17,252 nucleotides of DNA from a virus: UHGV virus genome UHGV-0812067; one strand, 5' to 3'. A model generated the notes under the pieces. The model saw only the letters and a list, made by a program, of their open reading frames with translations. It was not told the DNA's origin and did not search any database. The number at the start of each line of letters is the position of its first letter. The stretch's first letter is position 1. Shown in pieces: positions 14,311 through 17,019 of this stretch. Position numbers and translations under genes: made by a program.

Positions 14311-15228
14311 TTATCGCTTGGCTTCGCCGCCGAGAGAGGTTGTTAATCCGTTAATGAGAGAGATAAGCTCGCCGGTCATCAGAACAAAGTCAGCGTCGAA
14401 CCGCTGAGCCGCATCCTCACGGTCGATATCGTCGTTTTGTTCTGTAATCTCATTAGAGAACTTAAGGCGTTTGATGCTGCCGTCATCGCAAAGAACGAAC
14501 TGAATGCGCTGTTGCCAGTCGATAGACAGCTTTGTAACTACTTTGCCAGCTTCCAGATGCACATGAATTTCGTCACTGACCAGAGTCTGTTTTTTAAAGC
14601 GTCCAATACCGCCATCTTCAAGAATAGCTTTCAGTTCGGCTTCATCACCCAGGCCAAAGCCAGCAGGCGCACTACCGGAACGAACCCATTCGGTCATAGT
14701 TAGTTCGATCGGCGTTTCCATAGTCAGCGGTACCACCGGGAGAGAACCGAGAGTTTTACGAAGCAGGGCCAGTGAGTCTTCGGCACGTTTAGCGCTGGCT
14801 GCATCAACCATGATCAGACCGTCGGTGACGTTGATCCACAAACTAACAGTCGAGTTTTTGGAGAACGCCCGAGGAAGCAGGGAGTGCAACACTTCATCAC
14901 GCAGCGAATCTTTCTCAGTTTTTTTGAGGCGACGCCCCTGATCGGATTCCAGACGCGACACACGCTTGCGCAGTTCTTCAGCAATGACAGGAGATGGCAG
15001 TATTTTTTCTTCCCGGCGAATAACCAACAACACTTGATTATTGACAGTGTGATGCAAGCGATCTGACAGCTGACCAAGTGGTGATACCCAACCGGTTTTT
15101 GCCATATCCTGGCTACCGCATGGAGTGAAGCGAAATAGTTCAAGCTGCTGTTCCAGCTCTTCCTGGTTGATGGTGAAATCGCGACTAATGCGATACACCA
15201 ACATATTTTTGAAAAACGGATTGTTCAT
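14311..15228 (-). CDS. rdgC: RdgC-family recombination-associated protein, phage-encoded homologue
   Basis: 305 aa, [18 protein letters not shown]...[19 protein letters not shown]...KILPSPVI...[22 protein letters not shown]...LGSLPVVPL...RLKF..., collinear with E. coli RdgC along its whole length. Confidence 0.9.
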
Positions 15229-15693
15229 TCTCGGTTCCTCAACGCCTCTGCACCGGCGCTAAAAAGTTAGTTTCTCCATACACAACAGAGAAGGGCACCT
15301 GCATTGGTCGGCGGCTTGCAGAGACCGCTTTCTTTTTGCCCGGGTGGATTGGGTTATGAGCCCGTCGTCCGGTGATGCTCTTCTCTGTTTTGTAAAAAGG
15401 ACGGTACCAGCCGGAAGCAAGGGTACAAACTGGTACCGCCAGGACTACACACAGCATAAAGTTGTGGTGCCGGGTGCCTCCCGGTGCCTGGCGAAGGTTG
15501 CACACCAGGCGGGTGGGTATCCACAGAAGGTCGACTGTCAGCCTCAACCTTAACCCGCGTGCGCTGAGCCGCATTCACCACAACGCTAAGGATTCTCTCT
15601 GGTTGAAAATACTTAGCTGTTATGTGCCTGTCTTTTCACCACTTCAGGCTCGGTGGTATCCTTTTAAGCCCGTATACATAAAAGGAAAATCAA

Positions 15694-15939
15694 ATGACTT
15701 TTGATGAAAAAGAACTTGATAATGCAATTAATAAAATCATCGTAACGTCGCTCTTTTCCTGTCTCAGCGACACTCAGCAGAAACAGTTCTACGAATCGGC
15801 TTTCAACATGATCGAGCGTTGTTGTTTCTGCGATGCCGACGAGTTACCTGAAAAAATCAGGAAACAGTTGGCTGATGCTCTTCGAGTGCGACTTTCTGAC
15901 CAATTTTCTGAAATGTGCTCTCCGAATTTGGACAAATAG
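15694..15939 (+). CDS. hypothetical 81-aa protein
   Basis: ATG at 15694 with AAGGA 7 nt upstream. Sequence is protein-like and acidic/helical. It overlaps the 3' end of a convergent minus-strand ORF. Confidence 0.45.
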   Translation: MTFDEKELDNAINKIIVTSLFSCLSDTQQKQFYESAFNMIERCCFCDADELPEKIRKQLADALRVRLSDQFSEMCSPNLDK

Positions 15940-16132
15940 AAAAAGGCCATTTCCATTCAGGGTCTGATGGAAATACTTCAGCCTGTTCCAAAGCACGGCG
16001 TAAAGAGAATACAACTCCAGCCATAATCTGATGTTTCCCATTGGTCCAGCTATCGCTGCTCTGATCTACAGGAGCGGCTATGTCGTATGACCAAACGACT
16101 TCACCACTATTGTTTAAAATCTGGACTTTCAT
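15857..16132 (-). CDS. hypothetical 91-aa ORF, first ORF downstream of the putative leftward early promoter
   Basis: ATG at 16132 with GGAGG 12 nt upstream (long spacer). The C-terminal third overlaps the + ORF and contains a hairpin (15949-15974), so the true extent is uncertain. Confidence 0.3.
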   Translation of the reverse strand: MKVQILNNSGEVVWSYDIAAPVDQSSDSWTNGKHQIMAGVVFSLRRALEQAEVFPSDPEWKWPFSICPNSESTFQKIGQKVALEEHQPTVS

Positions 16133-16249
16133 TTTGTTCTTTAACCTCCAGATACGGGCGTTTAATTGCCCCGCCGAACAGCTCTTTTCCGCAATAGCTG
16201 CAATGTCTTTCGCGCATCAGCCTGCGCATTCACCACAACTCTAAAAACA

Positions 16250-16303
16250 AATGTAGGACATCCAACATGTGAGTGTCAAGAGTTTATGTTGGTTATCCTA
16301 CAT
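16250..16303 (-). promoter_or_regulatory. putative leftward early promoter (PL-like) with two 18-bp operators
   Basis: On the minus strand: TTGACA (complement of 16274-16279), 18-bp spacer, TACATT (complement of 16250-16255). Operator atgtaggacatccaacat (16251-16268) overlaps the spacer and -10; a second operator atgttggttatcctacat (16286-16303) lies upstream. Confidence 0.6.
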
Positions 16304-16318
16304 AAAAAGATAGGCTCA

Positions 16319-16346
16319 TAAAAAAACCGGGGATACCCCGGTTTTG
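16319..16346 (-). terminator. rho-independent terminator downstream of the repressor gene (bidirectional shape)
   Basis: ccgggg-ata-ccccgg stem (16327-16341), flanked by an A7 run (16320-16326, a U-tract on the minus strand) and TTTT (16342-16345) on the plus strand. Confidence 0.8.
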
Positions 16347-16365
16347 CGATAGTGAGGAAGATGTG

Positions 16366-17019
16366 TCAAAAATCCATTATTACTTGTTTGACAAGACCAA
16401 CTATTCTGCAGTTCTCACCGCATTCAATAGTTTTATAGTTAGGATTTAGTGGGACGAGATACCTGTTCGGCCAGTCCTCAACAAATTTTTTGAGTGTCGC
16501 TTCTTGCCCACCATTGATATGGGCAACAACGATTTTTCCGTTAATACACTCTGTATCAATAATATCTGGCTCTACGATAACGATAGAACCTTCTGGTATC
16601 GATGGTGAGCCGAGGGGATTGGTCATTGAATCACCACGGACCCGTAGTGCAAATGCCATTTCTGATACAAGGGCGGTAGTATAAACCCACTCTTCAGCAT
16701 CTTCTTTCCTGACACCAGGCTCCGTCATTGTCCATGAACCCGCCTGAACCCACGAGATGAGGGGGACTTTTTTAACTGCGAATATTTCAGGTTTTAGATT
16801 TATCTTTGGTTCAGGCGAGCCTTTTCCGCTAACAAGCCACAGAGGATCGCATTTAAGTGCGTTGGCTAGGGCTTGAAGGTTGGCTCCATTTGGTTGGTAG
16901 TCGTCCTTTTCCCATCCAGTAACCGTGACACGGTTCACACCAGTCAAATCAGCCAGTGCTTGTTGTGTCAGGTTCAGTTCTTTTCGCCTTTGGCGAATAC
17001 GATCACTCATGTTCATCAT
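16366..17019 (-). CDS. CI-like phage repressor (N-terminal HTH + C-terminal LexA/S24-type autocleavage domain)
   Basis: 217 aa. N-terminal HTH (RIRQRRKELNLTQQALADLTGVNRVTVTGWEKD); C-terminal S24 peptidase features (...ALRVRGDSMTNP... with a downstream Lys). No strong SD, as is common for repressor genes. Confidence 0.9.
   Translation of the reverse strand: MMNMSDRIRQRRKELNLTQQALADLTGVNRVTVTGWEKDDYQPNGANLQALANALKCDPLWLVSGKGSPEPKINLKPEIFAVKKVPLISWVQAGSWTMTEPGVRKEDAEEWVYTTALVSEMAFALRVRGDSMTNPLGSPSIPEGSIVIVEPDIIDTECINGKIVVAHINGGQEATLKKFVEDWPNRYLVPLNPNYKTIECGENCRIVGLVKQVIMDF

What the first reader, a model, noticed from the sequence alone, without database searches (positions are those of the whole stretch)
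15694..16132. Convergent, overlapping small ORFs with an embedded hairpin immediately downstream of the left promoter
The first ORF after the PL-like promoter (minus strand, 15857-16132, GGAGG 12 nt upstream) overlaps by 83 bp a well-supported plus-strand ORF (15694-15939, AAGGA 7 nt upstream). A hairpin (atttccat, loop, atggaaat at 15949-15974) followed by a T-run on the minus strand lies inside the minus ORF. Either one ORF is spurious, or this is an antisense-regulated pair (moron or exclusion-type gene) at the position where lambdoid phages carry rex/sieB-type genes.
Basis: seen in the sequence. Interest (0 to 1): 0.4.

Follow-up and report, generated by a model that had tools for sequence, protein, structure and literature searches.

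The report
Convergent overlapping prophage gene pair
Two small genes on opposite strands really do overlap here and both are kept by selection in prophages from E. coli to Yersinia; the rightward one carries the same upstream cassette that phage P22 uses, through an antisense RNA called sas, to switch off its sieB exclusion gene when the lytic promoter fires.

Summary
Gene A (15857-16132, minus, 91 aa, equal to SfV orf33) and gene B (15694-15939, plus, 81 aa) overlap by 83 nt, and neither is spurious. In eight lineages (E. coli, Salmonella, Klebsiella, Yersinia, metagenomes) the stretch from the A ATG to the B ATG is exactly 439 nt with no indels. pN/pS is 0.33 for A and 0.29 for B in their private parts. 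In the roughly 41-nt shared core, synonymous change is depressed in both frames. The pair always lies just downstream of the repressor gene and PL.

The 38 nt upstream of B (15626-15663) are 94% identical to the sequence upstream of sieB in P22 and lambda, and lie inside the published P22 sas antisense RNA. So B occupies the sieB slot with a sieB-type promoter/sas cassette, and A occupies the slot of N/gp24. Neither protein is related to SieB or N. The same cassette precedes at least ten unrelated small genes elsewhere, e14 ymfI/ymfJ among them.

The embedded hairpin is lineage-specific and probably incidental. Both protein functions remain unknown. This is a new variant of a known kind, of moderate interest.

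The parts
15857..16132 (-). Gene A, 91 aa, equal to SfV orf33 and phrog_3195. It is the first gene of the leftward (PL) operon. The conserved protein ends at about ...VALEE (codon 85, window 15878); the tail after that is free to vary.
   Evidence: Homologues at 56-67% identity are always the first gene after the repressor gene. pN/pS is 0.33 in its private part. The exhaustive profile search found only 19 proteins.
16145..16149 (-). Shine-Dalgarno GGAGG of gene A, 12 nt before the ATG here and 6 nt (GAGG) in relatives.
15694..15939 (+). Gene B, 81 aa, phrog_3311. It is predicted to be a three-helix protein with a CCxC motif, transcribed against PL. The conserved protein ends at about residue 75 (window 15918).
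   Evidence: The ORF is intact opposite A in every relative. pN/pS is 0.29 in its private part. The AF2 model has pLDDT 68.
15878..15918 (.). Core that codes on both strands. The conserved C-terminal part of A (FQ.IGQRVALEE) lies opposite the conserved C-terminal helix of B (LSEALRERL..Q..E). The third codon position of A faces the second codon position of B.
   Evidence: The 439-nt block has no indels in 8 lineages. pS falls to 0.19 (A frame) and 0.26 (B frame), against 0.55-0.66 in the single-coding parts. Nucleotide identity peaks at 0.86-0.88 around block 237-246.
15633..15662 (+). Candidate promoter of B: TTTTCA (15633-15638), an 18-nt spacer, then an extended -10 TGgTATCCT (15654-15662). 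The predicted start is near 15668, giving a leader of about 25 nt with the SD AAGGA at 15682-15686.
   Evidence: Inference from sequence. TGGTAT is kept in 24 of 25 short-type cassettes (one has CGGTAT) while the downstream bases vary between CCT, CTT and GCT. In P22 and lambda the same position reads TTC, and the mapped sieB promoter lies about 35 nt further on. The simple promoter scan did not flag this site.
15626..15698 (-). sas-like antisense RNA domain, read on the minus strand. It runs from the antisense of the B start codon and SD, through hairpin P3 (15659-15666 paired with 15679-15686), to two interleaved helices: ACCAC/GUGGU (15638-15642 with 15653-15657) and GCCUG/CAGGC (15626-15630 with 15645-15649). 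The interleaved helices are a probable H-type pseudoknot with an A-rich third loop.
   Evidence: The core is 94% identical to P22 and lambda upstream of sieB and lies inside the published 127-nt P22 sas RNA. Compensatory changes occur in both helices: 96.7% of cells pair, the covariation score is 0.161 against 0.049 in shuffles (0 of 500 as high), and slid controls pair at 21-50%. P3 is 5 bp or longer in 24 of 25 variants with covarying inner pairs.
16250..16279 (-). PL-like promoter TTGACA-18-TACATT, with operator-like 18-mers at 16251-16268 and 16286-16303.
16320..16346 (.). Hairpin terminator of the repressor gene: CCGGGG-ATA-CCCCGG with U7 on the minus strand and U4 on the plus strand. It is the first terminator-like structure that a rightward B transcript would meet.
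   Evidence: Read directly. SfV annotates a terminator at the equivalent position beside its own, different cI. No other plus-strand terminator-like site lies between 15940 and 16320.
15949..15974 (-).
   Evidence: z = -2.46 in the window, but no structure at the homologous place in L003, L005, L008, L009 or L175.

Best explanation
Both ORFs are real protein-coding genes. They form one compact, convergent, partly dual-coding cassette inserted right after PL. Gene A is the first gene of the leftward early operon, in the slot that N holds in lambda and gp24 in P22. Gene B lies in the sieB slot, points against PL, and carries a sieB-type regulatory cassette.

Proposed working:
- In a lysogen PL is repressed. 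B is transcribed from its own extended -10 promoter (about 15654-15662) and translated from a short leader.
- On induction or infection PL fires and A is made first.
- The same PL transcript then runs antisense through all of B and through its start codon, SD and promoter.
- There it folds into the conserved hairpin-plus-pseudoknot domain homologous to P22 sas RNA. The loop of hairpin P3 is complementary to the 5' end of the B mRNA.
- Convergent transcription and this stable antisense domain shut B off.

On this reading A and B are expressed in opposite states of the phage, as an excludon.

What is shown: both genes are under purifying selection, they are co-inherited, their position is constant, the upstream element is homologous to the sieB/sas region, and that element shows covariation.

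What is inferred: the promoter of B, the direction and effect of the RNA in this phage, and mutually exclusive expression. The biochemical functions of A and B are unknown.
For: Coding status:
- The block from the A ATG to the B ATG is 439 nt without indels in 8 lineages at about 72% nucleotide identity.
- pN/pS is 0.33 (A) and 0.29 (B) in the private parts, and 1.4-1.6 for the wrong frame.
- Amino-acid substitutions are conservative.

Co-occurrence and position:
- The pair is intact in Salmonella, Klebsiella, Yersinia and metagenome contigs, down to about 25-45% protein identity.
- In every contig long enough to show context it follows the repressor gene, directly or after one or two intervening genes.
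- Viral contigs gave 163 relatives of B and 166 of A.

sieB/sas homology:
- One search found 138 phage records with the element, including P22, lambda, HK620 and HK630, with sieB features under the match.
- P22 annotation places PsieB just after the element and sieB convergent with gene 24. Lambda sieB abuts N.
- The published sas RNA sequence contains the element (PMC13397905; alignment).

Structure.

Leftward promoters: PL is the only sigma-70-like leftward promoter within 600 nt, and none lies next to the sas 5' end in P22.

Analogous slot in E. coli K-12:
- e14 ymfI(+)/ymfJ(-) overlap by 63 nt and share the element.
- RNA-seq analysis lists ymfI-ymfJ and sieB-ydaF as convergent excludons (PMC12288877).
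- ymfJ is induced late in the SOS response, log2 4.8, against about 2 for ymfI (PMC11002266).
Against: - No transcript or protein data exist for this phage.
- The B promoter is only a consensus match that the simple scan did not report.
- Pair counts alone slightly favour the plus strand for the RNA. The beta helix pairs in 120/120 cells on plus against 112/120 on minus, because a terminal A-U alternates with G.U. A structured rightward leader is therefore not excluded.
- One distant A/B pair (L186) lacks the canonical element.
- Co-inheritance of A and B could follow merely from physical overlap.
- I could not read the 1993 sas papers, so whether sas is cut from the PL transcript rests on my recollection and on the absence of a nearby promoter.
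Confidence: 0.6

Rival explanations
1. Only the minus-strand ORF (A, SfV orf33) is a gene. The plus ORF is an accidental open frame on its antisense strand, as implied by the RefSeq annotation.
For: PGAP annotates only A in E. coli CT02, and SfV annotates only orf33. Antisense frames of real genes can mimic low pN/pS: the mirror frame scored 0.34-0.50.
Against: About 66% of B (15940 down to 15857 excluded) lies outside A, and that private part has pN/pS 0.29. The B ORF, start codon, SD and length are kept in all lineages, although the A frame there has pN/pS 1.4-1.5 and variable stops. Other annotators call B independently in Salmonella, Klebsiella and Yersinia. B has its own conserved upstream cassette.
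Confidence: 0.03
2. Only the plus ORF (B) is a gene and A is spurious, as implied by the phage SKA5 annotation.
For: SKA5 annotates B and not A.
Against: The private two-thirds of A has pN/pS 0.33, with invariant Trp, Gly and Asp positions. Homologues reach about 35% identity and always start right after PL with a GAGG SD.
Confidence: 0.02
3. Both genes are real, but the conserved upstream element works on the rightward strand. It would be either just a promoter with an upstream element, or a structured 5' leader (pseudoknot plus SD-sequestering hairpin, of thermometer or riboswitch type) that gates translation of B. PL-derived antisense RNA would play no specific role.
For: G.U pairs occur only when the helices are read on the plus strand: 8 of 24 variants in helix beta, 2 in alpha and 4 in P3. 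In most variants P3 pairs UCCUU with the SD AAGGA. The cassette sits at a fixed distance before diverse start codons.
Against: In P22 the mapped sieB promoter lies downstream of the element, so the element is not in the sieB mRNA, whereas the leftward sas RNA that contains it has been sequenced. No consistent promoter lies upstream of the element across variants. The loop geometry (3-nt first loop, 7-nt A-rich third loop) is the classical H-type arrangement only on the minus strand. The A.C mismatches on the minus strand fall on a terminal pair.
Confidence: 0.15
4. The overlap is simple genome compaction. A and B are unrelated neighbours with no regulatory or functional coupling, and travel together only because they share DNA.
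For: Overlap forces co-inheritance. e14 YmfJ and the L203 homologue share an N-terminal half but have different C-termini and partners, so the unit can be recombined.
Against: Unrelated gene pairs in the same slot (L203, L205, L210, L237, e14) are again convergent and overlapping by 33-119 nt. The architecture itself is therefore conserved. In P22 and lambda the same convergent geometry goes with documented antisense control.
Confidence: 0.15
5. The hairpin at 15949-15974 is an intrinsic terminator or attenuator that stops PL transcripts inside gene A until antitermination occurs.
For: It folds at -15.2 kcal/mol with z = -2.46, and a U run follows the extended stem on the minus strand.
Against: It is not conserved in any diverged relative. 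The stem is AT-rich, and four bases separate the inner stem from the U run. The terminator scan did not report it. Termination there would truncate a conserved protein.
Confidence: 0.05

Closest known systems
P22 sieB / esc / sas (Ranade and Poteete 1993) and lambda sieB
   Same: A rightward accessory gene sits inside the leftward early operon and converges on the first PL gene. It has its own promoter, used in the lysogen. The upstream sequence is homologous (35 nt at 94%), and that sequence forms the 3' domain of an antisense RNA covering the gene's start codon.
   Different: B (81 aa, soluble, helical) is unrelated to SieB, a 192-aa protein (BLASTP E 0.98; no Pfam hit). No Esc-type internal start is evident. 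The cassette is about 39 nt shorter, so the promoter must overlap the element. The partner gene overlaps B by 83 nt instead of abutting it. A is unrelated to N or gp24.
E. coli K-12 e14 ymfI / ymfJ
   Same: The slot is identical, between ymfH and the LexA-like repressor. The upstream element is identical, and the ORFs are convergent and overlap by 63 nt. The pair is listed as an excludon, and ymfJ is SOS-induced.
   Different: The protein sequences are unrelated to A and B, and both are of unknown function.
Excludons (convergent or divergent loci whose overlapping transcripts make expression mutually exclusive) and Rac sieB-ydaF
   Same: The genes are convergent, and each promoter's transcript is antisense to the other gene.
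   Different: Here the overlap includes protein-coding sequence on both strands, and a dedicated structured antisense domain is conserved.
Lambda OOP/cII and P22 sar/ant antisense pairs
   Same: A short structured phage antisense RNA controls a regulatory or accessory gene at the lysis-lysogeny boundary.
   Different: Those RNAs have their own promoters and terminators. The sas-like domain here has no nearby promoter and no U-tract terminator.

Membership tests
sieB-type, sas-regulated accessory cassette (P22/lambda) | The gene lies in the early-left region, is oriented against PL, and converges on the first PL gene. | tested here: met
   for the window; for P22 and lambda.
sieB-type, sas-regulated accessory cassette (P22/lambda) | The upstream DNA is homologous to the PsieB/sas region. 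| tested here: met
   blastn gives 94% identity over window 15623-15657 to P22, lambda, HK620 and others. Aligned to the published sas RNA, the 32-nt core differs at 2 positions.
sieB-type, sas-regulated accessory cassette (P22/lambda) | The encoded protein is a SieB homologue with an in-frame Esc start. | tested here: not met
   No Pfam, NCBIfam or PADLOC hit. BLASTP against P22 SieB gives E 0.98. An internal Met39 is conserved, but no SD precedes it.
sieB-type, sas-regulated accessory cassette (P22/lambda) | A stable antisense RNA is produced on infection or induction and switches translation. | not testable with these tools
   This needs RNA and protein measurements. Only homology and covariation are available.
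Antiparallel overlapping (dual-coding) genes | Each frame is under purifying selection, and synonymous change is depressed in the shared segment. | tested here: met
   pN/pS is 0.33 and 0.29 in the private parts. pS is 0.19 and 0.26 in the core, against 0.55-0.66 elsewhere.
Excludon | Transcripts from two promoters overlap and expression is mutually exclusive. | not testable with these tools
   The geometry fits. The e14 analogue was called an excludon from RNA-seq.
Lambda N / P22 gp24 antiterminators (for gene A) | An N-terminal arginine-rich motif, and a nut site (boxA plus boxB) in the PL leader. | tested here: not met
   The A N-terminus, MKVQILNNSGEVVWS, has one basic residue. There is no boxA in 16133-16243 and no alignment to gp24.
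Type II toxin-antitoxin operon | Two co-directional, co-transcribed small genes that belong to known toxin or antitoxin families. | tested here: not met
   The genes are convergent, and there are no family hits.
Intrinsic terminator (for hairpin 15949-15974) | A GC-rich stem immediately followed by a U tract, conserved in relatives. | tested here: not met
Rfam families (for the upstream element) | A match to a curated covariance model. | tested here: not met
   No match over 15626-15698 even at E up to 10. No Rfam family matched the sas-like element.

The most novel reading that the evidence does not exclude
A and B may be a two-protein system built like SieB/Esc but with separate genes. B would be a lysogen-expressed abortive-infection or exclusion factor, harmful to lytic growth. 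A, the very first product of PL, would be its dedicated antidote, which lets the phage's own induction escape while the sas-like RNA stops new B synthesis.

More broadly, the PsieB/sas cassette may be a portable 'on in lysogeny, off at induction' expression platform. Lambdoid prophages of Enterobacteriaceae would reuse it for many unrelated accessory genes, each paired with a convergent, overlapping early gene. Its RNA core would be a previously undescribed pseudoknot.
Probability: 0.25. Interest if true: 0.7.

Novelty: new variant of a known kind. Interest (0 to 1): 0.5.

Why it matters
Annotation. Pipelines keep one of the two genes and drop the other: RefSeq and SfV keep A, SKA5 keeps B. 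Yet the cassette is in about 7.5% of complete E. coli genomes (408 of 5426), and the upstream element is in about 35%.

Biology. The sieB/sas antisense switch, known from one 1993 P22 study, would become a widespread modular device that precedes at least ten unrelated cargo genes, including e14 ymfI in K-12 and a BssS-family gene. That gives a concrete, testable rule for how prophages silence lysogeny-specific genes at induction. It also supplies a list of uncharacterised small-protein pairs that are plausible exclusion/escape systems.

Evolution. It is a clean natural example of an antiparallel dual-coding segment in which the wobble positions of each gene face second codon positions of the other.

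Tried and rejected
Protein searches that found nothing:
- Pfam, NCBIfam and PADLOC scans of A and B.
- PHROGs, which returned only unknown-function families.
- PDB sequence searches.
- The AF2 model of A was unusable (pLDDT 48). The AF2 model of B (pLDDT 68) gave no Foldseek match at E <= 0.001 in PDB or BFVD.
- Scans of one genome per species found no relative of either protein.

Viral-contig protein scans returned only near-identical copies. Diversity came instead from protein-cluster look-ups.

Ideas considered and dropped:
- A rightward riboswitch or thermometer as the primary reading of the conserved element. This became a rival once the P22 sas sequence was found.
- An HK022 put-like antiterminator RNA. 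I had no sequence to compare, and the element turned out to be sas.
- The element as a plus-strand terminator. The scan flags it in the window, but the U run is not conserved.
- A conserved promoter upstream of the element. There is none.
- A dedicated leftward promoter for the sas-like RNA. None was found here or in P22.

Technical limits:
- MAFFT alignments could not hold both length variants of the pseudoknot or the P3 arms in register. P3 was therefore scored with my own script, and only the two interleaved helices were scored with the counting tool.
- The 1993 sas paper (Genes Dev) is not held in the library, and no PMC id was at hand for the companion J Bacteriol paper.

Full report
**Context.** The window is an SfV-like lambdoid prophage. 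The region 15500-16400 is 99.8% identical to Escherichia phage SKA5 and 98.6% identical to Shigella phage SfV up to position 16134. An S24/HTH repressor gene lies at 16366-17019 (minus), followed by a hairpin terminator at 16320-16346. Next comes a PL-like promoter, TTGACA-18-TACATT, at 16279-16250 between two 18-bp operator-like repeats. Further left are RdgC (14311-15228) and other early-left genes.

**Observation.** Every coordinate in the finding is correct.
- The minus ORF, 15857-16132 (gene A, 91 aa), has GGAGG 12 nt upstream.
- The plus ORF, 15694-15939 (gene B, 81 aa), has AAGGA 7 nt upstream.
- They overlap by 83 nt.
- The 8-bp hairpin is at 15949-15974.

Published annotations disagree. 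SfV and RefSeq call only A, while SKA5 calls only B. Each ORF has its own PHROG of unknown function. Neither matches Pfam, NCBIfam or PADLOC.

**Both frames are genes.**
- Protein searches found diverged homologues of A at 56-67% identity. A profile of B found homologues in Salmonella, Klebsiella and Yersinia.
- I fetched their contigs. In every case the other gene is intact on the opposite strand. This holds down to pairs where A is about 35% and B about 25-45% identical to the window proteins.
- In eight lineages the DNA from the A ATG to the B ATG is exactly 439 nt with no indel, at about 72% identity.
- By the Nei-Gojobori method, pN/pS in the part private to A is 0.33 in the A frame and 1.61 in the B frame. 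In the part private to B it is 0.29 in the B frame and 1.38 in the A frame (five-lineage version).
- In several relatives the A ORF runs on to 122 aa, but that extension is not under protein-level selection. The conserved A protein ends at ...VALEE (window about 15878) and the conserved B protein at about residue 75 (window about 15918).
- In this 41-nt core both pS values collapse (0.19 and 0.26, against 0.55-0.66) and nucleotide identity peaks at 0.86-0.88. That is the pattern expected of true dual coding. The frames are arranged so that each gene's third codon position faces the other's second.

**Position.** Where a contig is long enough, A is the first gene of the leftward early operon after the repressor gene. 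In a few contigs one or two unrelated genes lie between the repressor gene and A. The repressors themselves are of several different types. The cassette occurs in 408 of 5426 complete E. coli genomes. It is absent from the one-genome-per-species set. An exhaustive profile search for A found only 19 cluster representatives. The pair is thus a sporadic, mobile module.

**The upstream element.**
- Aligning the relatives showed that about 38 nt just upstream of the B SD (15626-15663, GCCTGTCTTTTCACCACTTCAGGCTCGGTGGTATCCTT) are far better conserved than either gene.
- The same element lies in front of E. coli K-12 e14 ymfI. That gene is convergent with ymfJ and overlaps it by 63 nt, in the same slot.
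- Pattern scans of viral contigs and my own scripts found the element before at least ten unrelated small rightward ORFs, one of them BssS-family. Most of these again converge on, and overlap by 33-119 nt, a leftward ORF lying just past the repressor gene.
- Across 24-25 sequence variants, two interleaved helices and a third hairpin are maintained with compensatory changes:
  - helix 1: GCCUG/CAGGC, GCCGGG/CCCGGC, GCCUU/AAGGC, GCCC/GGGC;
  - helix 2: ACCAC/GUGGU, ACCGC/GCGGU;
  - hairpin P3: CCUUUUA/UAAAAGG, CCUUAUC/GAUAAGG, UCCUUCU/AGAAGGA, CCUUGC/GCAAGG, UCUUGG/CCAAGA.
- With the counting tool, 96.7% of cells pair. The covariation score is 0.161 against 0.049 in shuffles (0 of 500 as high). 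Slid controls pair at 21-50%.
- Rfam has no model for the element.

**Identification.** A sensitive blastn of 15622-15696 against phage genomes hit 138 records, including P22, lambda, HK620, HK446 and HK630. Identity was 94% over the pseudoknot core, and the features under or beside the match were sieB.
- In P22 the element lies just before the annotated PsieB promoter, and sieB converges on gene 24, the N analogue. In lambda, sieB abuts N.
- A 2026 small-RNA study prints the P22 sas RNA (127 nt, leftward). It contains a P3-like hairpin followed by ACCAC-CGA-GCCUG-AC-GUGGU-UAAAAGA-CAGGC, the second helix ending at nt 110 (PMC13397905).
- Reviews describe sas as a 105-nt cis-antisense RNA that switches sieB translation from SieB to its inhibitor Esc (PMC12197685; PMC10002423).

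The conserved element is therefore the 3' structural domain of a sas-like antisense RNA, together with the sieB-type promoter region. The interleaved helices have the classical H-type geometry on the leftward strand, with a 3-nt first loop and a 7-nt A-rich third loop.

One honest complication remains. G.U pairs appear only when the helices are read on the plus strand. A rightward structured leader therefore stays as a rival. Against it, the mapped P22 promoter lies downstream of the element, and no upstream promoter is conserved.

**Promoter of B.** The window-type cassette is about 39 nt shorter than that of P22 and lambda. Almost all short variants keep TGGTAT before variable CCT, CTT or GCT. 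That makes an extended -10, TGgTATCCT, at 15654-15662, with TTTTCA 18 nt upstream. P22 and lambda read TTC there and place PsieB further on. This predicts a start near 15668 and a leader of about 25 nt whose 5' end is complementary to the P3 loop of the leftward RNA. It is an inference; the simple scan did not report the site.

**Mechanism proposed.** In the lysogen PL is repressed and B is expressed. On induction PL makes A first and then transcribes antisense through B and its initiation region. That yields the sas-like domain and convergent transcription, which together silence B. The only leftward sigma-70-like promoter within reach is PL, and P22 also lacks one beside the sas 5' end. That fits a PL-derived RNA but does not prove it. 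In K-12, ymfI-ymfJ and sieB-ydaF were called convergent excludons from RNA-seq. ymfJ rises late in the SOS response far more than ymfI does.

**What A and B do is unknown.** A is not N-like. It has no arginine-rich motif, there is no boxA in the leader, and it does not align to gp24. B is not SieB-like. B is predicted to be a three-helix protein with a CCxC motif that is lost in the most distant relatives. Fold and sequence searches found nothing.

**The hairpin.** It folds modestly better than shuffles in the window (z = -2.46). It has no counterpart in five diverged relatives. Its U run is the conserved WPFS codons of A. I regard it as incidental.

**Verdict.** This is a real antiparallel overlapping gene pair in the N/sieB slot, carrying a sieB-type promoter/sas cassette. 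It is a new variant of a known kind: new proteins, a true coding overlap, and a regulatory cassette that appears to be reused for many cargo genes. Interest is moderate, 0.5.

Noticed in passing
window 15392-15614 (-): A full-length but sub-threshold match to the prophage sRNA family STnc100 (RF02076): 43.1 bits against a gathering score of 47, E 1e-7. A weak DicF-like hit lies inside it at 15399-15453. The same stretch is annotated as a frameshifted ymfH-like pseudogene in RefSeq and as protein YmfH in K-12 e14, so 'ymfH' may really be an sRNA locus.
   Followed up: partly
window 15570-15584 and 16225-16239 (-): An exact 15-nt direct repeat, GTTGTGGTGAATGCG, brackets the whole A/B/sas module. 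None of 200 shuffles gave two hits. The right copy is about +4 to +18 of the PL transcript and the left copy lies inside the STnc100-like RNA. It looks like a scar of module insertion or a recombination linker.
   Followed up: partly
window 16134: Homology to SfV ends two bases upstream of gene A's start codon (ATG at 16132-16130). From there on the immunity region (PL, operators, repressor) is of a different type, shared with SKA5 and some Stx phages.
   Followed up: no
window 16080-16244 (+): The SKA5 record annotates a 54-aa ORF across the PL leader and the start of gene A. It has no family hit and is probably spurious.
   Followed up: partly
loci L203/L256, L205, L210, L237, L245, L251, L258, L045, L195, L227, L222, L232; e14 L012 2566-2640: The sas-like cassette precedes many unrelated small rightward ORFs (59 to 148 aa; the L210 cargo is BssS family, PF13991). 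Most are paired with a convergent, overlapping leftward ORF. The partner in L203 shares only the N-terminal half of YmfJ.
   Followed up: partly
L008, minus-strand offsets about 2249 and 2861: One prophage carries two copies of the cassette. Each has different covarying helix sequences (GCCC/GGGC and GCCUU/AAGGC) and precedes a different ORF.
   Followed up: no
L254 (about 97-140 in the leftward orientation): A consensus boxA (CGCTCTTTAACAA) directly follows the element on the leftward strand. This suggests that in N-type phages the module sits between PL and nutL. The cargo ORF there is truncated to 21 aa.
   Followed up: no
L012 3290-3330; L003, L009, L010 upstream of A; L175, L196 on the far side of the module: A GC-rich PL-leader motif (CAGGCAGGAYGCCCACGWAGTAG...) is shared by e14 and several A/B prophages. 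In Yersinia it lies on the other side of the module. Its function is unexplained.
   Followed up: no
proteins P0064, P0065, P0067 (loci L182-L184): Distant homologues of A carry N-terminal extensions of about 65-90 aa of unknown nature. Their C-terminal tails still mirror the antisense of the Cys-rich motif of B.
   Followed up: no
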